Origin: an uncultured Clostridium sp.
GTDB lineage: Bacteria > Bacillota > Clostridia > TANB77 > CAG-508
Reading direction: 5' to 3'
DNA: 64,000 bases
Assembly (NCBI GenBank): GCA_947572725.1
Contig: CANPDB010000003.1
Location: forward strand, 2,296-66,295
Part shown: positions 1,497 to 61,700 of the stretch, one piece after another
How positions within the stretch are numbered: position 1 is the first letter of the stretch
How the letters are laid out: each line of letters starts with the position of its first letter
Notes under the pieces: generated by a model
What the model was told of the DNA's origin: nothing
Database searches by the model: none
The model's input: only the letters and a program-made list of their open reading frames with translations
Program-made: the position numbers and the translations under genes

Positions 1497-1631
1497 GGTA
1501 TGTACTTAATCTTTGTATGGAGAGTATCCAATAAAGACCTATGAATCTTGTCAGGTCCGGAAGGAAGCAGCAATAAATAGTCATCTTTATGTGGAAACTT
1601 TCCATAGAGAGATTGAGTGCAGCCATTTTTT
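1497..1631 (+). ncRNA. ffs: signal recognition particle RNA (scRNA/4.5S, ffs)
   Basis: Contains the SRP domain IV hallmark GTCAGGTCCGGAAGGAAGCAGC. 5' and 3' ends are complementary (ACTTAATCT / AGATTGAGT) and a T-run follows. Upstream promoter TTGATA-17-TATAAT. Sits directly upstream of dnaX. Boundaries approximate. Confidence 0.7.
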
Positions 1632-5997: not shown

Positions 5998-6053
5998 AAA
6001 TTCTCCTTTTTGCATTAATTTTATCATTATTATAATTTAGATTTAAAATTATC

Positions 6054-6313
6054 TACTCGCTCCCAGGAGTTTATATTTTAATATTTTTTCGTTATCCCCA
6101 TTCTAAAAATACAAAACCAAGATTTTCTAAACAAGCTTGCTTGTAAGAAAATATAAATTTTGCATAATTAATTTCTACGTCAAGTGCATAAATGCACTTT
6201 CCTAGAACTTAAAAACCTAACAAAAGTTCATAGAACTTTTGAGGATTTTTGAACGGTCCCCACAATTTCACTTCAAAATATTAAAATATAGAACTCCTTC
6301 GCGCTATTTTAAA
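6054..6313. repeat. MITE-like palindromic intergenic repeat (full-length copy, family 1)
   Basis: About 260-bp element with terminal inverted repeats CTCCCAGGAGTTTATATTTTA ... TAAAATATAGAACTCCT and internal imperfect palindromes. Shorter copies are at 38712-38857 and 22781-22935, a left-end fragment at 20641-20690 and an inverted degenerate copy at 48893-49034. Confidence 0.7.
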
Positions 6314-6470: not shown

Positions 6471-6947
6471 TTGAAAAGTATAATAAAAATAGCAATACTA
6501 TTATTAACATTAATAGTGACAATAATTTCAATTATTTTATTAACAACCATTGTAGGAGAGCAAAATATAAGTTATGCTGCTGCATCAACAACTTCAGACA
6601 TTCAACTTATGGCAAGAGCAATCAATGGAGAAGCGAGAGGAGAACCTTATGAAGGGCAAGTAGCAGTTGGAGCTGTAATTTTAAATAGGGTCAAAAACTC
6701 AAGTTTCCCTAACACCATAGCAGGTGTAATATATCAATCAGGAGCATTTACAGCAGTAGCAGATGGACAAATTAATCAACCTATTGCAGAAGGATCAACA
6801 GTATATAAAGCAGCACAAGACGCAAGAAATGGATGGGATCCGACAAATGGCTGTATTTATTATTTTAATCCACAAACTGCTACTAATAAGTGGATATGGT
6901 CTAGACCATTAGTAAAAACAATTGGAAAGCACAGATTTTGTAAATGA
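6471..6947 (+). CDS. sleB: spore cortex-lytic enzyme, SleB/CwlJ family (Hydrolase_2 domain)
   Basis: TTG start with RBS. Motifs AINGEARGEPYEGQVAVGAVILNRV and GAFTAV of the SleB catalytic domain. Immediately upstream of a ypeB homologue. Confidence 0.7.
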   Translation: MKSIIKIAILLLTLIVTIISIILLTTIVGEQNISYAAASTTSDIQLMARAINGEARGEPYEGQVAVGAVILNRVKNSSFPNTIAGVIYQSGAFTAVADGQINQPIAEGSTVYKAAQDARNGWDPTNGCIYYFNPQTATNKWIWSRPLVKTIGKHRFCK

Positions 6948-7082
6948 GACACTTGGGACGGTGCGAAAATGTCTCATAATTAAATTGAAAAATGTCGAAA
7001 GTAAAATAAAATTATAATTAAATATGTTATGACAAAAAACGACAAAAAGATGAGACATTTTTGGACCGTCCCAAGTGTCTCA
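6945..7082. repeat. paired inverted hairpin repeats (pair A), TGAGACA stems around a GGGACGG core
   Basis: TGAGACACTTGGGACGGTGCGAAAATGTCTCA (6945-6976) and its near-exact reverse complement TGAGACATTTTTGGACCGTCCCAAGTGTCTCA (7051-7082). Together they fill the sleB-ypeB intergenic region. Confidence 0.7.
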
Positions 7083-7097
7083 AGAAAGGAAAGTTTT

Positions 7098-8471
7098 ATG
7101 AATAAATTAGTAGATTGGAAAAATAGGTTAAAAAAAGGGCATATGTTAAGTGTAATTTGTGCACTTTTAATTATTGTAGCTATATTAGGTGTTATTTTAT
7201 ATAAAAAGCAAAGAGAATATAGACAAGCATCTGAAAATAGTTATAATATGGCATTTTATGAATTAGTAGATTATGTACAAAACGTGGAAACATATTTAGC
7301 GAAATCGTTAATTTCTACAACTCCTGAACATGGAGCAGAAACTTTAACAAATTTATGGAGAGAAGCTAATCTTGCACAAAGCTATTTAAGTATGTTACCA
7401 ATAGAAAGTCAAGAACTAGCAAATACAGAGAAGTTTCTAAATCAGGTAAGTGATTATAGTTATTCATTATCAAGAAAGAATATTTATAATGAAAGTCTGT
7501 CAGATGAAGACTTAAAAAATTTAAAAGATTTATATGGATATAGTGTAGAATTAGAAAATACTTTAAATCAACTATCAGAAGATTTAAATACAGGAAGACT
7601 AGAATGGGGAGAATTAACTAAAAAAGGAAATATAGCATTTGCACAGCAAGTAGATAATATATCAAAAGAGAGTTTTAGTAATTTGGAAGAAAATTTCCAC
7701 GAGTATTCAGGATTAATTTATGATGGAGCATTTTCAGAACATATTACAAGTAATGAGGCAAAAGGTTTAACAGGAGAAGACATAAGCGAAGAACAAGCAA
7801 AAGAAAAGGCAGAAAATTTAATAGGAAAAGAAAATATAAAAGAAATATCAAACTTAGGATATTCAGAAAACGCAACTATTCCAGTATATGATTTTTCAAT
7901 AACAAATAATAATGATGAGTCAATAAATGTATCAATTTCGAAAAAAGGTGGACACATTGTATATATGAATTCAAACAGAGATGTAAATGCAGAAATGATA
8001 TCACAAGAAAAAGCAAATGAGAAAGGTAAAGAGTATTTAACACAAAAGGGATTTCCTAATATGAAAGAGACATATTATTTAAAACAAGAGGGAATAGTAA
8101 CAATTAATTATGCTTATACACAAAATAATGTAATTGTATATTCTGATTTAATAAAAGTAAAGGTTGCATTAGACAATGGGGAAGTCTTAGGGATAGAAAC
8201 AACAGGTTATCTAAATAATCACCAAGAAAGAGATACTAAAAATGTGAAAATTACTAAAGAACAGGCAAAACGAAATTTAAATAAAGAATTAACTATAGAA
8301 AGTGAAGGAATGGCAATTATTCCAACAGAATGGAAAACAGAAATACTTTGTTACGAATTTAAAGGAAGAGTAGAAGAAAAAGAATTTTTAGTTTATATTA
8401 ATGCGGAAAATGGAAGAGAAGAAGATATTTTAGTTATTACAAATACTCCAAATGGTACACTTACTATGTAA
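7098..8471 (+). CDS. ypeB: germination protein YpeB (PepSY domains)
   Basis: N-terminal TM segment, then PepSY-like repeats. Partner gene of sleB. Start at MNKLVD with RBS AAGGAAAG. Confidence 0.7.
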   Translation: MNKLVDWKNRLKKGHMLSVICALLIIVAILGVILYKKQREYRQASENSYNMAFYELVDYVQNVETYLAKSLISTTPEHGAETLTNLWREANLAQSYLSMLPIESQELANTEKFLNQVSDYSYSLSRKNIYNESLSDEDLKNLKDLYGYSVELENTLNQLSEDLNTGRLEWGELTKKGNIAFAQQVDNISKESFSNLEENFHEYSGLIYDGAFSEHITSNEAKGLTGEDISEEQAKEKAENLIGKENIKEISNLGYSENATIPVYDFSITNNNDESINVSISKKGGHIVYMNSNRDVNAEMISQEKANEKGKEYLTQKGFPNMKETYYLKQEGIVTINYAYTQNNVIVYSDLIKVKVALDNGEVLGIETTGYLNNHQERDTKNVKITKEQAKRNLNKELTIESEGMAIIPTEWKTEILCYEFKGRVEEKEFLVYINAENGREEDILVITNTPNGTLTM

Positions 8472-8472
8472 G

Positions 8473-8755
8473 TTGCCAAGAGGGACGGGTTTTTTTGGCA
8501 ACTTTTGTTTATCAATTAGAATAAAATAAAAAATTCTAAAATCTGAAAAAAGTGCATTGAAAGTAATTAAATTAGAAATTATTAATTTGGTTTATGGAAA
8601 TAGTTTATTTTTAATGAAAGGGTGCCATAAACCAAATTTAAAATTTCTATGAAAATTAGCTTGAACAAGCATTTTTGATAATTTTAGAATTATTTATTTT
8701 TATTATATATAAATAACGGATAAAGTTGCCCAAAAGACCCGTCCCTTTTGGCAAC
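8473..8755. repeat. paired inverted hairpin repeats (pair B), GTTGCCAA stems around a GGGACGGG core
   Basis: GTTGCCAAGAGGGACGGGTTTTTTTGGCAAC (8473-8503) lies directly after the ypeB stop. Its reverse complement GTTGCCCAAAAGACCCGTCCCTTTTGGCAAC (8725-8755) lies directly after the VanW-gene stop. About 220 bp of AT-rich spacer separates them and contains a further inverted repeat TTTGGTTTATGG...CCATAAACCAAA. Confidence 0.7.
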
Positions 8756-8765
8756 TTTTAGCATT

Positions 8766-10587: not shown

Positions 10588-10764
10588 ATGTCTCGAAATA
10601 GTAAATTAATATCTGAAAATTTAAGAGAAGAAATAGCTAAAGAATTAGGTGTATATGATCAAGTAAAACAAGATGGTGGTAGTTGGGCAAATGTTTCATC
10701 AAAAGATTGTGGTAATATAGTAAAAAAGGCAATTGAGATAGCAAATAGATCAGTAGAAAGTTAA
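10588..10764 (+). CDS. small acid-soluble spore protein, alpha/beta type
   Basis: 58-aa ORF (below the ORF-track cutoff) with RBS AAGGAGG. Sequence SENLREEIAKELGV...SSKDCGNIVKKAIEIA matches clostridial alpha/beta SASPs. Hairpin terminator downstream. Confidence 0.7.
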   Translation: MSRNSKLISENLREEIAKELGVYDQVKQDGGSWANVSSKDCGNIVKKAIEIANRSVES

Positions 10765-14744: not shown

Positions 14745-14980
14745 ATTCCCAACTGCTAACAGTTTGTAGATAAACTTCTGTGGTGCAGTTGCTCCTCGAA
14801 CTTAATATTATAAAAGTTCTTAGAACTTTTATAATATTAATACATTCCACAGAAAAAATTCTAAAGAATTTTTTCGCGGACGAACAAAGACGGAGCATAT
14901 AAGAAATCTAAAAGGTCAAAAAATTTTAATCATGCTCCTTTTGTTCTCTACAAACTATAAATTGTTGGTCCCCACATTCA
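14745..14980. repeat. palindromic intergenic repeat (family 2, TCCCAACTGC ... GGTCCCCAC ends)
   Basis: Nested internal palindromes (AACAGTTTGTAGA...TCTACAAACTAT; ATAAAAGTTCTTAGAACTTTTAT; AAAAAATTCTAAAGAATTTTTT). Ends resemble the repeat at 24191-24255. Confidence 0.55.
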
Positions 14981-19488: not shown

Positions 19489-19517
19489 TTGCCAAAAAGA
19501 CCCGTCCCTTTTGGCAG
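19489..19517. repeat. solo hairpin repeat (unit C) of the GGGACGGG-core family
   Basis: TTGCCAAAAAGACCCGTCCCTTTTGGCAG immediately upstream of the sbcD-like RBS. The ORF track's 19489 start runs through it, so the true start is taken as 19531. Confidence 0.65.
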
Positions 19518-22714: not shown

Positions 22715-22780
22715 ATTATTTAGTATCAATTTTATTTAGCAATCAATTAATTTTCTTTTAGTTAATTATATTTTTTAAAC

Positions 22781-22935
22781 TACTCACTCCCAGAGGTTTA
22801 TAATTATATATTTTTTCACTGCCCCAACCTAAAAATTCTAAAGAAAAGTTTTTTAAACTTTTCTAAGAATTTTTGGATGGTCACCCCGGAGTCGTTCAAA
22901 AGGTATATAATTATAAACCTCTTCGCGCTATTTAA
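22781..22935. repeat. MITE-like palindromic repeat (family 1 copy)
   Basis: Left end ACTCACTCCCAGAGGTTTATAATTATAT and right end ...CTCTTCGCGCTATTTAAAT. Internal palindrome AAAAATTCTAAAGAAAAGTTTTTTAAACTTTTCTAAGAATTTTT. Confidence 0.65.
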
Positions 22936-24111: not shown

Positions 24112-24119
24112 ATAATAAA

Positions 24120-24334
24120 TGTGACAAAAGGGGCGTCCCTTTTTGTCACATAAAAATTATATATTTAAAATGTTATTATATTTTTTATTTGCAACTCCCA
24201 ACTGCACACAGTCTGTAAATTCTTAACAGACTGTAGCTTGTCGGTCCCCACGAAATGTTGCTTCATAAAGAAATATAATAACATTTTATAAAAAACAAAT
24301 TTGTGTGACAAAAAAGGGCGCCCCTTTTGTCACA
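24120..24334. repeat. paired inverted hairpin repeats (pair D) flanking a family-2 palindromic repeat
   Basis: TGTGACAAAAGGGGCGTCCCTTTTTGTCACA (24120-24150) and TGTGACAAAAAAGGGCGCCCCTTTTGTCACA (24304-24334). The first directly follows the prfA stop. The second directly precedes the RBS of the next gene. The repeat at 24191-24255 lies between them. Confidence 0.65.
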
Positions 24335-24347
24335 GGAGGTAAAAAAC

Positions 24348-38857: not shown

Positions 38858-39219
38858 TATTCTATACTAAATTGTAAACAATAATATTTTATAAATAATT
38901 ACTTGAGTTAGAGGTTTGTAAATTAAATGCAAACTTCTTAATTATTACCTATAATGTTACAATCCATAGTTTATATAAATTTGTGTATAAAATCAATAAC
39001 AATGAATTGTAAAAAATATAAATTGCTAGAATAACACAGAAGATAAAAATGGGAGATAAAGCGAAAAAAAGAGAGATAATCAATAAAAAAGAAACAAAAC
39101 ATACAAAAATTGGCCTTTTTAATCTTTGCAAAAAAACAAATATTACAATAATATTACAATAACATTACAAATATTTCAAACATACAAGAGAATTAATAAT
39201 AGTACAAAGGAGCCTAAAA

Positions 39220-49681: not shown

Positions 49682-51799
49682 TTGGCAAAAAATACGAAGA
49701 ATATAAGTAAAAGTAATATTAATTTAAGATTTAATATTTTAACAGTATTAACATATATAGTAGGAATTATACTAATTGCCAGACTATTTAATCTTCAAAT
49801 AGTGCATGGTGCTGAGTATAGGGAAGGATCTAATACAAGACTTACAAGAGAAAGTGTTTTAGAGGCATCAAGAGGTTCAATAATAGACAAAACAGGAACA
49901 ACCTTAGTAAATTCAAAAATGGAATTTTCTTTAGAAATGTATAAAAGTAAAGTTGATACTGAAGTTTTAAACCAATCAATTTTGAATATGGTAAATATAT
50001 TAGAAAAATATGAACTTGATTATGTGGATTCTCTACCAATAAAAGTGGAACCTTTTGAATATAAAATTTCTGAAAAAGAATTAGAAAATTGGAAAAAGGC
50101 AAATAACTTAGAAAATGACTTATCAGCAGAGCAGGCTTTTTACAAGTTAAAAGATAAATACAAAATTAAGAATGATGATATACAAGAAACAAGAAAGATT
50201 ATGACCTTAAGATATGAATTATCTCAAAAGGGATATAGTAGCACTAAAGCTGTTAAAATAGCTGGAAATATATCAAGAGAAGCTGTTGCAGAATTTAGTG
50301 AAAGTTCAGAAAAATTTGCAGGTATTAACATTGTAGTGCAACCTATAAGACAATATACTTCTGGAAACTTAGCATCACACATTTTAGGATATGCGGGAAA
50401 AATAAGTAGTGAAGAGTATGAAAAAAGGAAAAGTACTTACGGCAGTAATGACCTGATAGGAAAAACTGGAATTGAATATGTATTTGAAGAATATCTAAAA
50501 GGAAAAAACGGAACAAAACAAATCGACATGGCCGTTGATGGAACAACAACAGCGGAATATGTTTCACAAGAAGCAATAGCAGGCTCAGATATTGTATTAA
50601 CAATAGATGCTAATTTACAACACATAGCAGAAAATGCACTTGCATCTAACATTCAAAAAATATCTAGTGGAGGATTTGGACGAGCATATGATGCTAAAGC
50701 TGGTGCTTGCGTAGTTATGAATGTTAACTCAGGAGAAGTATTAGCAATGGCAAGTTATCCAGATTACAATCCAGAAGATTTTGTTGGTGGAATAAGTAAT
50801 GAAGCATGGAATAAATATACAAATAATTCAGCTAAACCACTAGTAGATAAAGCAATACAAAATTCATATTCACCAGGTTCAACATTTAAGATGATAACAG
50901 CTATAGCAGGACTAGAATCAGGAGCAATAAATTTAAATACAAAAATCAATGATACAGGTGTATATAAAAAATATGGAATTTCAATGAATTGTTGGTATTA
51001 TACAGATTACCATAGAGGACACGGATACTTAGATGTATCAGGTGCAATTGAAAAGTCATGTAACTATTTCTTCTATGAAACAGGAGATAGAATGGGAATT
51101 GACAAATTAGCAGAATTTGCTAGATATTTTGGACTTGGTGGAAAAACAGGAGTAGAGCTACAAGGAGAAACAGGAGGAGTATTAGCAAGTAGAGAAACAA
51201 AAAGTCAAATGCATCCAGATGATCCAAACTGGAATCCAGGAAACACTCTAAATGCTACAATAGGACAAGGAGATAATGAATTCAGCCCAATACAAATGGC
51301 CAGATACATAAGTATGCTCGCAAATGGAGGACACAAAATCGATGTTAGTATAGTAAAAACAATAAGGAATGCAGATGGGTCAGAGGTATCTCGAGAAGAT
51401 ATTAATAAATTTGTAAATAAAAAATTAGGGCTAGAGGAAGATACCACAGAAGAACTACAAATAAATCAAAATCATTTAAAGGCTGTATTACAAGGTATGA
51501 AATCTGTTACAAGTGATACAGAAGGAACAGCATACGTTAGATTCAAGGATTTTGATATAAGTGTAGGTGGTAAAACAGGTTCAGCAGAAGCACCAAATAA
51601 TCAAGTACATGCATGGTTTGTTGGATTTGCGCCATTTGAAAATCCTGAAATAGCAATAGTTGTTATGGTAGAAAATGGAGGTCATGGAAACTATACAGCA
51701 GAAGTAGTTAGGGATATTATGGCTGAGTACTTTGGAATGAATACTCAAAATATAGAAGAAAATATGAATGCAACACCATTTATAGAAATAATGCAATAG
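49682..51799 (+). CDS. mrdA: penicillin-binding protein 2 (class B PBP, elongation-specific)
   Basis: N-terminal TM, PBP dimerisation domain and transpeptidase motifs STFK, SCN and KTG; position after mreBCD. Confidence 0.85.
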   Translation: MAKNTKNISKSNINLRFNILTVLTYIVGIILIARLFNLQIVHGAEYREGSNTRLTRESVLEASRGSIIDKTGTTLVNSKMEFSLEMYKSKVDTEVLNQSILNMVNILEKYELDYVDSLPIKVEPFEYKISEKELENWKKANNLENDLSAEQAFYKLKDKYKIKNDDIQETRKIMTLRYELSQKGYSSTKAVKIAGNISREAVAEFSESSEKFAGINIVVQPIRQYTSGNLASHILGYAGKISSEEYEKRKSTYGSNDLIGKTGIEYVFEEYLKGKNGTKQIDMAVDGTTTAEYVSQEAIAGSDIVLTIDANLQHIAENALASNIQKISSGGFGRAYDAKAGACVVMNVNSGEVLAMASYPDYNPEDFVGGISNEAWNKYTNNSAKPLVDKAIQNSYSPGSTFKMITAIAGLESGAINLNTKINDTGVYKKYGISMNCWYYTDYHRGHGYLDVSGAIEKSCNYFFYETGDRMGIDKLAEFARYFGLGGKTGVELQGETGGVLASRETKSQMHPDDPNWNPGNTLNATIGQGDNEFSPIQMARYISMLANGGHKIDVSIVKTIRNADGSEVSREDINKFVNKKLGLEEDTTEELQINQNHLKAVLQGMKSVTSDTEGTAYVRFKDFDISVGGKTGSAEAPNNQVHAWFVGFAPFENPEIAIVVMVENGGHGNYTAEVVRDIMAEYFGMNTQNIEENMNATPFIEIMQ

Positions 51800-51915
51800 G
51801 TTGCCAACGGTTCCGGGTTTTTTTGGCAACTTGTAATACATATATTTATTATTTATAGCTGAATATAAGTTTAATGTTGTAATAGTTGCCAAAAAAACCC
51901 GGAACCGTTGGCAAC
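51800..51915. repeat. paired inverted hairpin repeats (pair E), GTTGCCAA stems around a CGGTTCCGGG core
   Basis: GTTGCCAACGGTTCCGGGTTTTTTTGGCAAC (51800-51830) directly follows the mrdA stop. Its exact reverse complement GTTGCCAAAAAAACCCGGAACCGTTGGCAAC (51885-51915) lies just upstream of minC, after a 54-bp AT-rich spacer. Confidence 0.7.
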
Positions 51916-51939
51916 CTCTTAGCAAGGAAAGGATGTAAA

Positions 51940-58735: not shown

Positions 58736-58756
58736 AGAGAAAGGAGGGAAAAATAT

Positions 58757-61700
58757 ATGAAAAAAGAAAATACAACAAAAATAAAAGATATAGTACTAAT
58801 TATAATAATGTTTATCCTAATTATATTAGGAATAAGTACTACCTCAAATGCTAAGCATTATGGTACGACAATACCAGATGATATCCATAATATAAAAATG
58901 AGAGATACATTTAGTTTATCTTATACTGAATATGAGTCTAATAAAAATAAATTATTCTGTATAGAGCATGAACAGAAATTAAAAGGAGATAAGTATAACG
59001 ACTACAAAGTAGTAAGAAAGCTTTATATTGATGGAAAAACTGTTTCAAATGATAAAGGACAGACTAACACAAGTAATAGAAATGCAAAGTTAGCATATGT
59101 TTTACATCATACTAGTGGAGAGCAGAGGCGTAAAGCCATATGGTATTATTTCCCTGATTGGGTAGACAAAATTGGTTCAGATTTAGGTGTATCTTCGCAG
59201 TGGGTAACCGATAACAATGAAGGAAGAAAGGATTTACCATCAGATAGTAGTATTCAGAAATATATAGACAATATAAACAACCTAGAGGGAAAAAAGGGAG
59301 CTTTTGTGAAACAAAAAAATACAGATGAAAAGCCCACAGCAAAATTGCCTACTAGTTCAAAATATAGAGACGAATTTGTTAAAGTTGGTCCATTTAAACT
59401 TGATTTTTATCCAAAGCTTGCATCTATGAAAATAAAAGGGATAAAACCTAATGGAGATAGTGTATCAATAGATGATAGTGATATAAAATTTGTAATTGAT
59501 GGTAGGGTATGTGAAGATATTGACAAATTGAAAAGCAATGAGGAATTTTCAATATTGATACCAATAGAAAAAAGAATAACTATAATAACAAATATGGAAG
59601 TAACAACAAAGATGATAGACAGTAATGTTAAAGTTATTTGTGCAGATATTATAATTTTAAGAACAGGCAGTGGTTCAGAAGCCTTTCAGAATCTGGCTAT
59701 TGTAGAAACTTCAGAAGAAGGTATTAATTCAACACCTGCTTCACTAAATATGGATTTAGATATATCTACTTTAGTAGATATTAGAATAACAAAAGTAAAC
59801 TCTCAAAATACTAATGAAAGACTTCCAGATGTTGGATTTAAACTATATCACAAACAATTACAAAGATGGGTAAGACAAGTAGATGGTAAAACTACATATG
59901 TAGAAAATGAATCAAGTGCTACAGAATTTAAAACAAACAGAGGAAGTATTATTAGTAGAGGTCAAAAAGTAATTACAGATTTATTGTTAGGAGACTATAG
60001 ATTTGTAGAAACAGAACAACCAGACCATAGATTTGAAATGGCGAATAAAGACTTTACACTAAGTTCAAATAAAACAACTGTACTTGAAGGGTTACTTGTA
60101 CCAATAGAAATTCCAAACGATCCAACAGGTGGTATGCTAATAGAAAAGGTAGATGAAAGCAATGAAAGTATTAAAATTCCAGGTGTTAAATTTAAATTAA
60201 GAAACATAAGTTTAACAGGAAGTTATCAATGGGTAACTCAAGATTCATCTGGAAATATATCATATACTGATGAGGAAAAGGCTAAAATATTTGAAACAAA
60301 TTCAAGTGGTCAAGCAAGCGTTCAAAAATTGGCAGTTGGTGAATATGAGTTCAAAGAAATAGAAGTGCCAGAAGGATATGAGTGTGCAAGCAAATACTTT
60401 ACAGTAACAGAAGGAGACGTAAATTCACAGTCAACTATAAAATATACAATTAAAAACAAACCAATAGGTGATGGTGGCATATTAATAGAAAAAGTTGATG
60501 AAGAAAATACAAATATAAAAATTCCAGGAGTTAAATTTAAATTAAAAAATACAAGTTTACCAGGAGAACAATGGGTATATAAATTAAATTCAGGAGAAAT
60601 CACATATGTGGCCGAAGTAGCTGCTACAGAATTTTGTACAGATCAATATGGTAGAGCTAAAATAAGTAAATTAGAACCAGGAAATTATGAATTCTGTGAA
60701 ACAGAAGTACCTGAAGATTACGAATGTACTACTAAGTATTTTACAGTAACGCAAGACGAATCAGATAAAATGGAAATGGAAACAATACCATATACAATTA
60801 CAAACAAGAAGAAAGAAAAAGATCCTGTAACTATAATTATAGAAAAAGTAGATTCAAATAATCAAAGGATTAAACTTTCAGGTGTTGGATTTAAATTAAG
60901 ATTTATACAAGATAACAAGTGGATATATCAAGATTCATCTGGAGCAACTACATATGTAGATAGTGAATCAAGTGCTACAACATTCTATATAGAAAGTAAT
61001 GGTCAAAAGACAATTAATAATTTATATGAAGGCGATTATGAGTTTAAAGAAGTTGTACAACCATATTATGGATATGAATGTATAAGTAAAAACTTTATAG
61101 TAAAATCAAGTGAAGAAGCAACTATACAATATTTTACAGTTACAAATAAGCAGGAAAGAATAAAACTTTCTGGTAGAGTATGGTTAGATAAACATTCAGG
61201 AAAACAAAACATAAGAAATGATTTATATATGACAAATTACCATTATAATCAACCAGAATATGTAGATGATTCAGATCAGGCAATTGCAGGCTTAACAGTT
61301 AAATTAATGAAAAATGGAGTGACCGAAAGAACAGCTGTAACAGCATCAGATGGAACATATATGTTTGAAGATGTTTTAGTAGATGATTTAAATAATTATT
61401 ATGTAGAATTTGAATATAATGGATTAATTTATACAAATGTAGAGCCACATCTTGATAATAATAATGGGTCAAAAGCAATAGAAGGTGCAGATGCAAGAGA
61501 TGAATTTAACAAAGGATTTAATTACATTGAAAATGGAGGTTCACAAACTAAAGGAGTTACTAAAGGACCAGAACCAGATAGAAATGTTGTTCACGAATTA
61601 GAATATGAGATTGACAGTAATGCTCATACAGCAACTCTTGGAGGAAATAGTAAAGACATAAACAATTCACAATTCCGTATAACTGCAAATACCCAAAAGG

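What the first reader, a model, noticed from the sequence alone, without database searches (positions are those of the whole stretch)
8473..8755. Family of 29-32 bp hairpin repeats with a GC-rich GGGACGGG-type core, occurring as exactly inverted pairs abutting stop and start codons
Five loci carry units of the form [7-8 bp stem][A-run][GC-rich 8-10 nt core][T-run][stem']: pair A 6945-6976/7051-7082 (stems TGAGACA), pair B 8473-8503/8725-8755 (GTTGCCAA), solo C 19489-19517 (TTGCCAA), pair D 24120-24150/24304-24334 (TGTGACAA) and pair E 51800-51830/51885-51915 (GTTGCCAA). Within each pair the second unit is the near-perfect reverse complement of the first, with a 54-220 bp AT-rich spacer between them. 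Stems and cores differ between loci: GGGACGG in A, B and C; GGGGCGTCCC in D; CGGTTCCGGG in E. Units begin at or 1-2 nt after a stop codon, or end just before an RBS. The ORF track translates through several of them (PKRPVPFG, KKPGTVG). This recalls REP/BIME elements of enterobacteria, which are palindromic units in inverted pairs and substrates of RAYT transposases. It is unusual in that the partners match exactly while loci diverge. That points to local duplication-inversion, gene conversion, or a shared function such as a bidirectional terminator/attenuator, a long-range stem or a protein binding site.
Basis: seen in the sequence. Interest (0 to 1): 0.65.

Follow-up and report, generated by a model that had tools for sequence, protein, structure and literature searches.

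The report
REP-like hairpin doublets of gut Clostridia
The paired hairpins are small repeated palindromic DNA elements of the REP/REPIN kind, whose matching transposase gene I found flanked by the same hairpins in related gut Clostridia, a bacterial group for which the papers I searched describe no such system.

Summary

Each "unit" is a hairpin with an 8-10 bp stem that differs between loci. GGGACG sits on the 5' side of the loop. Each "pair" is in fact one long palindrome of 80-290 bp.

In 80 related genomes and 120 gut-metagenome contigs the same units recur. 83% of motif copies lie in the 16% of DNA that is non-coding. Neighbouring units were convergent 81 times and divergent 0 times. Stems covary fully, almost never through G-U pairs.

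Orthologous intergenic regions are empty in some species, hold a single unit in others, or hold doublets of different subfamilies.

The decisive result is a REP-associated tyrosine transposase (RAYT)-like gene in the relatives. It lies between an ABC-F gene (a cytidine deaminase gene in some) and tex, and is flanked by these units in the same polarity. One flanking unit is identical to a dispersed doublet on the same contig. A RAYT clade with loop variant GGGGTCGG matches dispersed units that carry that variant.

Verdict: a REPIN-RAYT system, a new variant of a known kind, because it has a loop motif and no 5' GTAG tag. A terminator or insulator role is plausible but only inferred. I could not check for the RAYT in the window's own genome.

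The parts
6944..6977 (+). REP-like unit A1. Stem ATGAGACA/TGTCTCAT, with GGGACGG in the loop at 6955-6961. Its TGA serves as the sleB stop codon.
7051..7082 (-). REP-like unit A2, the inverted partner of A1, with the motif at 7066-7072 on the minus strand. It ends at the ypeB ribosome-binding site.
6944..7083 (.). Doublet A as a whole (REPIN-like palindrome), inserted between sleB and ypeB. Many relatives have only a stop codon plus ribosome-binding site here.
8470..8504 (+). REP-like unit B1. Stem GTTGCCAA/TTGGCAAC, motif at 8482-8488. It starts inside the ypeB stop codon and is terminator-like as RNA.
8722..8758 (-). REP-like unit B2, the inverted partner of B1, with the motif at 8739-8745 on the minus strand. 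It lies 8 nt from the stop of the convergent vanW-like gene.
8470..8758 (.). Doublet B as a whole, a 289-nt nested palindrome that fills the ypeB/vanW convergent intergenic region.
   Evidence: (I5, I13)
19490..19516 (-). Single unit C, with the same stem family as B and the motif at 19502-19508 on the minus strand. It sits directly before the ribosome-binding site of the sbcD-like gene. It is probably the remnant of a doublet.
   Evidence: single/doublet differences at orthologous sites in relatives
24119..24151 (.). Unit D1. Stem TGTGACAAAAGGG/CCCTTTTTGTCACA with a near-palindromic loop. GGGACG is on the minus strand. It lies 8 nt after the prfA stop codon.
24304..24334 (.). Unit D2, the inverted partner of D1. 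Its loop is GGGCGCCCC, with no exact motif. It abuts the ribosome-binding site of the next gene.
24119..24335 (.). Doublet D as a whole, with 67-nt arms. The centre holds a copy of a second repeat family (about 24190-24255).
   Evidence: (I1)
51800..51830 (+). Unit E1. It has the stems of B, but the loop variant is CGGTTCCGGG. It starts 1 nt after the stop of the penicillin-binding-protein gene.
51885..51915 (-). Unit E2, the exact reverse complement of E1, lying before the minC ribosome-binding site.
51795..51920 (.). Doublet E as a whole, with 47-nt arms. It lies within the penicillin-binding-protein/minC gene run.
   Evidence: (I2)

Best explanation
The units are REP-like hairpins, and each pair is a REPIN-type element.

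Anatomy (shown). Two copies of a roughly 30-nt hairpin lie in fixed convergent polarity around a variable centre. The stem is 8-10 bp and free to vary. The loop is 9-12 nt and begins (G)GGGACG[G/T]. The whole element is a long palindrome.

Family behaviour (shown). The elements form a dispersed, fast-turning-over family. They lodge almost only between genes, typically from the stop codon to the next ribosome-binding site, or from stop to stop between convergent genes.

Mobilisation (inferred). The family is spread in trans by a chromosomal RAYT, a Y1 HUH transposase. In related genomes this gene sits between an ABC-F gene (a cytidine deaminase gene in some) and tex, and it is itself enclosed by two such units. 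By analogy with IS200/IS605 TnpA and E. coli TnpArep, the enzyme would recognise the folded single-stranded hairpin. The loop motif probably acts as the specificity determinant, and the element would be cut and rejoined as single-stranded DNA.

Effect on the host (inferred). The GGGACG strand always points into the element. A transcript entering from either side therefore meets the more stable RNA hairpin, often followed by a run of T. The elements probably act as terminators or 3' stabilisers for the flanking genes, and as insulators for whatever sits in the centre. In a read-through transcript the two units could pair into a duplex of 30 bp or more.
For: 1. Real and non-random in the window.

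2. Conserved loop, covarying stem. An alignment of 30 distinct units has 7 of 7 stem pairs with changes on both sides and 88% of cells paired. It has 77 double-change cells against 25.7 in shuffles, and GGGACG is invariant. Changes on one side only, such as G-U, are nearly absent, which points to a constraint on DNA rather than RNA.

3. A family tied to intergenic DNA. GGGGACG is enriched 12-fold in 1.3 Mb of related loci. 122 of 147 GGGACG copies lie in the 16% of DNA that is non-coding. 97 of those 122 follow the stop codon of a co-oriented gene, mostly 8-23 nt downstream.

4. Fixed polarity. Among neighbouring motifs 25-400 nt apart, 81 pairs are convergent, 31 tandem and 0 divergent.

5. 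Turnover and dispersal.
- The sleB-ypeB and ypeB-vanW intergenic regions are empty in many relatives and hold doublets of different subfamilies in others.
- Single units and doublets alternate at orthologous sites: L015/L052, L062/L056 and L082/L079.
- Identical 30-48-nt arms occur at non-orthologous loci.
- At least 11 of the 80 listed metagenome contigs end within 50 nt of a unit.

6. The enzyme.
- In L194 two convergent units enclose a 246-aa Y1_Tnp protein.
- Ten such proteins score 59-81 bits on NCBIfam REP_Tyr_transpos (cut-off 80) and 19-23 bits on the IS200 model.
- The only match among solved structures is 4ER8 TnpArep.
- The HUH histidines and the tyrosine of YIHxNP are invariant.

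7. RAYT loci. 30 contigs with 10 distinct proteins at 48-100% identity were examined: L194, L203 and 28 fetched loci. All 28 fetched loci sit upstream of tex and carry a minus-oriented unit 13-69 nt after the stop. Eight of the ten proteins also have a plus-oriented unit upstream. None has the opposite polarity.

8. Link to the dispersed copies. The unit beside the RAYT on contig JAAWAM010000029.1 is identical, 29 of 29 nt, to the ypeB-downstream doublet on the same contig.

9. Motif and enzyme vary together. The P0005/P0007/P0009 clade is flanked by GGGGTCGGAG units, and dispersed units with that variant exist.
Against: - No RAYT gene lies in the 64-kb window, and I could not search the rest of this organism's genome.
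- The classical 5' GTAG/GTGG tag of REPs is absent.
- The RAYT-like proteins mostly fall just below NCBIfam's equivalog cut-off (1 of 10 passes), so they form a divergent group.
- Subfamilies are many and each has few copies in the DNA I hold. This differs from the few, very abundant REPIN families of Pseudomonas or E. coli.
- No clean filled-versus-empty pair between very close strains was found, so the insertion mechanism and target are not resolved.
- Mobility is inferred from comparison, not observed.
- Terminator features are modest. Only 31% of units have at least 5 T in the next 8 nt, against 20% on the other strand.
- The E-type loop (GGTTCCGGG) and the D loop have no enzyme assigned.
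Confidence: 0.8

Rival explanations
1. The units are ordinary intrinsic terminators that arose separately at each locus. Some are bidirectional, and there is no mobility and no dedicated enzyme.
For: - 97 of 122 intergenic motifs lie just after a co-oriented stop codon.
- Convergent intergenic regions are occupied most often: 32 of 205, against 27 of 718 co-directional and 7 of 196 divergent.
- In L012 the doublet is the only sequence between two convergent stop codons.
- The simple terminator scan flags B1 and C.
- The hairpin of the GGGACG strand is more stable as RNA, -8.4 against -5.4 kcal/mol.
Against: - An invariant loop motif on unrelated stems is not expected of independently evolved terminators.
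- The same 30-48-nt arms occur at non-orthologous loci.
- Units also sit in reverse orientation directly before ribosome-binding sites inside operons.
- Contigs break at the units.
- The units flank a RAYT gene.
- Loops of 9-12 nt and a T run in only 31% of units are poor terminator design.
- Plain terminators of a different look exist in the same genome.
- Terminator activity is compatible with the main explanation as a secondary role.
Confidence: 0.05
2. The units are the ends of miniature elements (MITEs) derived from a conventional DDE insertion sequence. The 30-nt units would be terminal inverted repeats bound as double-stranded DNA.
For: The elements have inverted ends, are small, lie between genes, differ in presence between species, and sometimes carry cargo. 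An example is the AbrB-like gene between units in L030 at 7677-8256.
Against: - No target-site duplication is visible at the sleB-ypeB site when compared with empty sites.
- Each end is itself a hairpin whose stem covaries freely while only the loop is conserved. This fits recognition of a folded single strand, not of duplex ends.
- No DDE transposase was seen between units.
- The gene found between units is a Y1 HUH enzyme.
Confidence: 0.06
3. The pairs are invertible DNA switches (invertons). Inverted repeats would flank a promoter that a site-specific recombinase flips.
For: - The inverted repeats lie upstream of genes.
- The centre of doublet A holds a promoter-like TTGAAA-16-TAAAAT at 6985-7012.
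- A large serine recombinase gene, split into two reading frames, lies in the window at 30606-32178.
Against: - Centres can be as short as 19-46 nt, too short to invert and too short to hold a promoter.
- Many doublets lie between convergent stop codons, where no promoter is needed.
- There are dozens of copies in many subfamilies.
- I did not look for flipped centres, and none came to notice in the elements I compared.
- The associated enzyme is a RAYT.
Confidence: 0.02
4. The doublets are RNA-level devices kept by selection at each locus. The two units would pair in read-through transcripts into a long duplex cut by RNase III, or act as attenuators, and the DNA family would be a by-product.
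For: - Whole elements fold into near-perfect hairpins of -40 to -130 kcal/mol as RNA.
- Several sit inside likely operons, such as sleB-ypeB and the penicillin-binding-protein/minC run.
- From my own knowledge, not checked here: other bacterial palindromic repeats, such as the Correia/nemis elements of Neisseria, are reported to be processed in this way.
Against: - Stem changes go almost only from one Watson-Crick pair to another, with 0-1 G-U per pair, unlike RNA helices under selection.
- Doublets between convergent genes would seldom be transcribed across.
- Orthologous sites are often empty.
- This idea explains neither the conserved loop nor the RAYT link.
- It is compatible with the main explanation as a side effect.
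Confidence: 0.05

Closest known systems
REPIN-RAYT systems of Pseudomonas, enterobacteria and Neisseria (Group 2 and 3 RAYTs; PMC3116915, PMC5581495, bioRxiv 10.1101/2021.07.10.451892)
   Same: - Two short palindromes lie in inverted orientation around a variable spacer and form one long hairpin.
- They are extragenic, and single units occur as remnants of doublets.
- A chromosomal Y1 transposase is flanked by the same repeats and stays at a conserved locus, here upstream of tex.
   Different: - The host is a low-GC (27%) uncultured gut Clostridia lineage.
- The conserved sequence lies in the loop (GGGACG[G/T]), not at a 5' foot tag.
- Many stem subfamilies exist per genome, each with few copies in the DNA I hold.
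- The RAYT carries an extra, conserved C-terminal region of about 100 aa.
[quoted passage not shown]
E. coli REP/BIME with TnpArep (structure 4ER8; PMC6006769)
   Same: - Imperfect palindromes in inverted pairs lie at the 3' ends of genes and between operon genes.
- The enzyme has an HUH motif and a YIxxNPVKxG motif.
- 4ER8 is the only solved structure matched.
   Different: - There is no GTAG tag.
- Stems are AT-rich, with loops of 9-12 nt.
- Protein similarity is weak: E = 0.0015, 21 bits.
CGTC-tagged REPs (PMC3733652)
   Same: - They are short palindromic extragenic repeats, mostly found as head-to-head dimers.
- The tetranucleotide CGTC is present, as the reverse complement of GACG in the loop.
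   Different: - In that family CGTC is a terminal tag beside an 8-9 bp stem with a 4-5 nt loop, and no transposase is associated.
- Here the sequence is inside the loop and a RAYT is associated.
- That survey reported the family in five phyla, none of them Firmicutes.
IS200/IS605 elements and their transposase-less derivatives
   Same: - The enzyme belongs to the Y1 HUH superfamily.
- Ends are recognised as folded hairpins.
- There is no target duplication.
   Different: - From my own knowledge: the two end hairpins of IS200/IS605 lie in the same orientation on one strand. Here they are inverted.
- The proteins score 19-23 bits on the IS200 model and 59-81 bits on the RAYT model.
Correia/nemis and ERIC-type palindromic repeats
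   Same: They are small intergenic palindromes that can be co-transcribed and fold into long RNA hairpins, with possible effects on mRNA processing. That role is stated from my own knowledge.
   Different: From my own knowledge: those repeats have duplex terminal repeats and target duplications and are linked to DDE transposases. None of this was seen here.

Membership tests
REP/REPIN-RAYT system | Short (20-40 nt) imperfect palindrome as the repeated unit | tested here: met
   The units are 27-37 nt hairpins. The stem is supported by covariation in 30 distinct units.
REP/REPIN-RAYT system | Over-represented and largely extragenic | tested here: met
   GGGACGG occurs 5 times against 0.18 expected in the window. 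GGGGACG is enriched 12-fold in relatives. 122 of 147 GGGACG copies lie in non-coding DNA, which makes up 16% of the sequence.
REP/REPIN-RAYT system | Two units in inverted orientation around a variable spacer, forming one hairpin (a REPIN) | tested here: met
   Four doublets lie in the window. Dozens more occur in relatives. Polarity among neighbouring motifs is 81 convergent against 0 divergent. Whole elements fold as long hairpins.
REP/REPIN-RAYT system | A RAYT (Y1 HUH transposase) gene flanked by units of the same family | tested here: met
   Met in related genomes and gut-metagenome contigs: L194, L203 and L204-L231. One flanking unit is identical to a dispersed doublet on the same contig. 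This was not testable for the window's own genome, because no RAYT lies in the 64 kb.
REP/REPIN-RAYT system | RAYT kept at a conserved chromosomal locus and inherited vertically | tested here: inconclusive
   All 28 fetched RAYT loci (48-100% protein identity) lie upstream of tex, after an ABC-F gene or a cytidine deaminase gene. L194 and L203 were not checked for these neighbours. Copy number per genome and agreement with the host tree were not measured.
REP/REPIN-RAYT system | Conserved GTAG/GTGG tetranucleotide 0-2 nt 5' of the stem (PMC6006769, PMC3733652) | tested here: not met
   The first stem columns vary (GATG, GCTG, GTTG, TGAG, GGGA and others) and are base-paired. The invariant block is GGGACG in the loop.
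REP/REPIN-RAYT system | Mobility of the doublets | tested here: inconclusive
   The evidence is indirect only. Orthologous sites are empty, single or doubly occupied. Identical arms occur at non-orthologous loci. Contigs break at units. No fresh insertion was caught.
RAYT protein family (NCBIfam NF047646, Pfam PF01797) | Score above the curated cut-off, with the HUH and catalytic Tyr motifs | tested here: inconclusive
   On Pfam Y1_Tnp, the one protein scanned scores 50 bits against a cut-off of 23, so it passes. On NF047646, ten proteins score 59-81 bits against a cut-off of 80, and 1 of 10 passes. H63, H65 and Y123 are invariant. 4ER8 is the only solved structure matched.
IS200/IS605 transposase-less derivatives | End hairpins in the same orientation on one strand; IS200-type TnpA | tested here: not met
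   The units are always inverted. The IS200 model scores only 19-23 bits.
Intrinsic (Rho-independent) terminator | Stable GC-containing hairpin followed directly by a run of U on the transcribed strand | tested here: inconclusive
   B1 and C are flagged by the scan. Over 233 units, 31% have at least 5 T in the next 8 nt, against 20% on the other strand. Hairpin energy is -8.4 against -5.4 kcal/mol. No transcript data are available.
Invertible promoter switch (inverton) | Inverted repeats around an invertible segment that holds a promoter; both orientations present in populations | tested here: not met
   Centres as short as 19-46 nt cannot invert or hold a promoter. Many doublets lie between convergent stop codons. 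Read-level data on orientation were not available.
DDE-transposase MITE | Duplex terminal inverted repeats with a target-site duplication | tested here: inconclusive
   No duplication is evident at the sleB-ypeB site when compared with empty sites. The compared species are too far apart for single-base resolution.

The most novel reading that the evidence does not exclude
This may be a previously undescribed, clade-wide REPIN-RAYT partnership in uncultured gut Clostridia.
- The transposase would read a motif in the hairpin loop (GGGACGG, with GGGTCGG in one RAYT clade) rather than a 5' GTAG tag.
- The RAYT has kept one chromosomal slot upstream of tex while diverging to 48% identity.
- The doublets would have been taken over as the terminators and insulators of a very compact genome. 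They even supply stop codons and enclose cargo such as an AbrB-like gene and the RAYT itself.
Probability: 0.45. Interest if true: 0.7.

Novelty: new variant of a known kind. Interest (0 to 1): 0.6.

Why it matters
The papers I read state that only Group 2 and 3 RAYTs, mainly of Proteobacteria, are associated with REPINs. They mention Clostridia only for a RAYT group that lacks abundant repeats.

A REPIN-RAYT system in low-GC Firmicutes would matter in three ways:
- It would widen the known range of these long-lived repeats within genomes.
- It would give a second, independent example for testing how a RAYT chooses its hairpin, because here the motif and the enzyme appear to change together.
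- It would help explain why metagenome assemblies of these abundant, uncultured gut Clostridia break at intergenic sites.

It also bears on annotation. In these genomes, stop codons, terminators and 5' leaders are partly built from repeat DNA.

Tried and rejected
1. Rfam, at gathering and at permissive thresholds, found no bacterial family at the units. Doublets E and A drew only weak matches to the plant and animal microRNA-precursor models MIR399 and mir-548, which simply reflect long hairpins.

2. Scans of viral contigs with two unit patterns gave 0 matches, so there is no sign of a phage origin.

It found nothing. This said little, because all those loci cover the same 20-kb region. The RAYT was found only after the metagenome scan.

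4. I looked for a transposase between distant unit pairs in the syntenic loci. I found only an AbrB-like cargo gene (L030) and ordinary genes between separate elements.

5. Filled-versus-empty comparison among close species gave single/doublet differences. It gave no clean empty site for a whole doublet, so the insertion target stays unresolved.

6. A fold-back or template-switch origin in place was considered. It would put the hairpin at the centre of the palindrome, not at both ends, and it cannot explain identical arms at unrelated loci.

7. Rolling-hairpin "flip/flop" ends were considered and rejected, because polarity is fixed at 81 to 0.

8. Naming the organisms that carry the RAYT homologues through cluster members gave no organism names beyond "Clostridia bacterium".
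Full report
**The observation**

The window is 27% GC and comes from a spore-forming member of the Clostridia. It carries sleB, ypeB, a vanW-like gene, a penicillin-binding-protein gene and minC, and prfA.

The inverted-repeat scan ranks them among the longest in the window:
- D: 67-nt arms, 84% complementary.
- E: 47 nt, 89%.
- B: 36 nt, 92%.
- A: 33 nt, 94%.

GGGACGG occurs 5 times against 0.18 expected. The GTTGCCAA-type frame occurs 3 times against 0.01.

Placement at gene boundaries is as described:
- A1 provides the TGA stop of sleB, and A2 ends at the ypeB ribosome-binding site.
- B1 begins inside the ypeB stop codon, and B2 lies 8 nt from the stop of the convergent vanW-like gene.
- C, D2 and E2 abut ribosome-binding sites.

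**Anatomy**

Each unit is itself a hairpin. The "A-run, GC core, T-run" is the upper stem and loop.

Each pair is more than two units. The whole interval is a nested palindrome that folds, as RNA, at -59 (A), -110 (B), -94 (D) and -72 (E) kcal/mol.

B and E have identical stems and differ only in the loop, AGGGACGGG against CGGTTCCGGG. D has a nearly self-complementary loop.

**Relatives**

I used YpeB as a handle and fetched 80 loci of about 20 kb from related uncultured Clostridia, such as Clostridium sp. CAG:343. YpeB identity is 79-89%.

- GGGGACG is enriched 12-fold in this 1.3 Mb.
- Listing every GGGACG with its context shows one design throughout. A 5' arm of 8-10 nt is followed by GGGACG[G/T], then a few bases, then the complementary arm.
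- The arms fall into about ten subfamilies shared between species, for example GATGATTTTG, GCTGTTTTTT, GGTTGCCAA, GTGTCCAATT, GGGATTTTA, GGGAAATT and TGAGACA.

An alignment of 30 distinct units gives these results:
- 7 of 7 stem pairs have changes on both sides.
- 88% of cells are paired.
- There are 77 double-change cells against 25.7 in shuffles, and far fewer when the partner column is slid.
- Changes on one side only, such as G-U, are nearly absent. This argues for a constraint on DNA, where both strands must fold, rather than on RNA alone.

**Distribution**

- 122 of 147 GGGACG copies lie in the 16% of DNA that is non-coding.
- 97 of those 122 follow a co-oriented stop codon, mostly 8-23 nt downstream. 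The other 25 face a gene start, typically 22-29 nt from it.
- Convergent intergenic regions are occupied most often: 32 of 205. Co-directional regions are occupied in 27 of 718 cases and divergent ones in 7 of 196.
- Among neighbouring motifs 25-400 nt apart, 81 pairs are convergent, 31 tandem and none divergent. The GGGACG strand therefore always runs into the element.

**Turnover**

- In many relatives the sleB-ypeB junction is just a stop codon plus a ribosome-binding site. In others it holds doublets of different subfamilies, as in the window, L015, L021, L027, L035 and L052.
- The ypeB-vanW region ranges from a plain 33-nt terminator to doublets of at least eight subfamilies. In L012 the doublet is the only sequence between the two stop codons.
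- Close species differ by a single unit against a doublet at the same site: L052/L015, L056/L062 and L079/L082. The stems are also short direct repeats, so a doublet can lose one unit by simple deletion. This would account for the single unit C.
- Identical arms of 30-48 nt occur at non-orthologous sites, for example in L024, L029, L075 and L059. Their centres differ.
- Some arms carry tandem copies of the 5' half of a unit, and the other arm mirrors them, as in L058 and L061.
- One element encloses an AbrB-like gene, L030 at 7677-8256.

**The enzyme**

At least 11 of the 80 listed contigs end within 50 nt of the unit, as expected where assemblies break at repeats.

In L194, two convergent units 1,060 nt apart enclose a 246-aa protein.
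- It scores 50 bits on Pfam Y1_Tnp.
- It scores 78.7 bits on NCBIfam REP_Tyr_transpos against a cut-off of 80, and 20 bits on the IS200 model.
- It has 1,554 homologues at E ≤ 1e-10, many on contigs of about 1 kb.
- Nine further homologues score 59-81 bits on the RAYT model, and the three that match the IS200 model at all score 19-23 bits there.
- The only match among solved structures is E. coli TnpArep, 4ER8.
- The HUH histidines and the tyrosine of YIHxNP are invariant across 17 homologues. A C-terminal region of about 100 aa is also conserved.

I fetched 28 loci for nine of these proteins (48-71% identical to the L194 protein).
- Every one lies upstream of tex. The gene before it is an ABC-F gene or, in one clade, a cytidine deaminase gene.
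- Every one has a minus-oriented unit 13-69 nt after the stop.
- Counting the L194 protein, eight of the ten distinct proteins also have a plus-oriented unit upstream. The other two keep only the 5' arm.
- None shows the opposite polarity.

Two links tie enzyme and repeats together:
- The unit beside the RAYT on contig JAAWAM010000029.1 is identical, 29 of 29 nt, to the ypeB-downstream doublet on the same contig (L012).
- The P0005/P0007/P0009 clade is flanked by units whose loop reads GGGGTCGGAG. Dispersed units with that variant occur in L018, L019 and several metagenome contigs.

**Interpretation**

These features define a REP/REPIN-RAYT system. It has short extragenic palindromes, inverted doublets with variable spacers, single-unit remnants, and a chromosomal RAYT enclosed by the same repeats at a conserved locus (PMC3116915, PMC5581495, PMC6006769).

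The mode of movement is inferred by analogy with IS200/IS605 and TnpArep. It would involve recognition of the folded single strand, with cutting and rejoining without a target duplication. The role of the loop motif as the specificity determinant is also inferred, from its invariance and its change together with the enzyme.

**Effects on the host (inferred)**

- The GGGACG-strand hairpin is the more stable one as RNA, -8.4 against -5.4 kcal/mol.
- It is followed somewhat more often by a run of T, in 31% against 20% of units.
- Together with the fixed polarity and the preference for gene ends, this suggests the elements serve as terminators or 3' stabilisers and insulate their centres.
- Inside operons the two units could pair in a read-through transcript.
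- None of this has been tested with transcript data.

**Comparison with known families**

- The classical 5' GTAG tag is absent. The CGTC of "CGTC-tagged" REPs is a terminal tag in a different design, and that family has no associated transposase (PMC3733652).
- Neither REP survey I read reports such repeats in Firmicutes (PMC3733652, PMC12306157).
[quoted passage not shown] It mentions Clostridia only for Group 1 (PMC5581495; bioRxiv 10.1101/2021.07.10.451892).
- I therefore file this as a new variant of a known kind.

**Limits**

- The RAYT was not sought in the window's own genome, because no tool remained for that.
- No fresh insertion or exact target site was seen.
- The E- and D-type loops have no assigned enzyme.
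- Copy number per genome is extrapolated only. The window holds about 9 units in 64 kb.

Noticed in passing
window 6050-6310, 22775-22930, 38710-38860; related cores at 14745-14980 and 24190-24255: A second family of structured intergenic repeats, all on the plus strand. Shared blocks include ACTCNCTCCCAG, CGTTATCCCCATTCTAAAAAT, GAACGGTCCCCACAATTTCAC and TTCGCGCTATTTAAAT, around variable nested hairpins. Some copies are flanked by their own AT-rich inverted repeats (I4 and I6). One copy sits in the centre of doublet D. There is no Rfam match.
   Followed up: partly
L022 13262-13540, L074 16487-16765, L055 1448-1710, L018 8921-9056, L061 5090-5178: Relatives carry further palindromic intergenic insertions of other families that are present in one species and absent in its neighbour. 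They often start right after a stop codon. One family shares the blocks TCGCAACC, GGTTGCTCCAATCGCACTCGC and GGTCGCTTACGCGGTATTT.
   Followed up: no
L047/L071/L077/L080 versus L063 7469-7470: In L063 two adjacent genes overlap as ATG-TAG-GAGG. In the other four species a 70-230-nt hairpin-bearing block sits exactly after the TA of that stop codon and restores it as TAA. Window doublet A does the same kind of thing, supplying a TGA stop for sleB.
   Followed up: partly
L075 1097-1444, L080 7739-8086, L071 5504-5898; L030 7677-8256: Small AbrB/SpoVT-like genes with their own promoter-like sequence appear as insertions of 350-520 nt after a stop codon. In L030 the gene lies between two REP-like units.
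   Followed up: no
L058 about 10590-10670, L061 11400-11450, L004/L009/L011 just after the ypeB stop codon: There are tandem arrays of the 5' half of a unit (arm plus loop, about 20 nt) ahead of a complete hairpin. Where the other arm is visible (L058 near 10759), it mirrors the array.
   Followed up: no
window 30606-31232 and 31369-32178: A large serine recombinase gene appears split into two reading frames. It is followed by a Fic-like protein gene at 32247-33185. By the look of the sequences, this is probably part of an integrated element. It was not scanned against family libraries.
   Followed up: no
window 37277-37372 (+): There is a match just below threshold to Rfam RF03531 (n00280, a Clostridioides difficile sRNA inside a helicase gene), at 61.3 bits against a gathering score of 65.2. 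It lies within the helicase-like gene at 35441-37846.
   Followed up: no
window 8504-8721 (centre of doublet B): The 220-nt centre is itself a nested palindrome. It shares short blocks, ATTGAAAGTAATT and AAAATTTCTATGAAAATT, with the ypeB-downstream regions of L038 and L074. It may therefore be a third repeat or a conserved element.
   Followed up: no
window 1515-1610 (+); window about 58740-64000 (+): A bacterial small SRP RNA lies at 1515-1610, at 63.9 bits. An open reading frame of at least 1,755 codons starts near 58740 and runs off the end of the window, which explains why that stretch looks free of genes.
   Followed up: yes
L014 9075, L021 9070, L036 3976, L079 7876, L082 9064 (minus strand, about 900 nt upstream of ypeB): A conserved block, GCACCTTGGG...GGGGACGAAT...TCTCAAAAGG, contains the motif but does not have the unit design. 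It recurs at the same position in several species. It was left unclassified.
   Followed up: no
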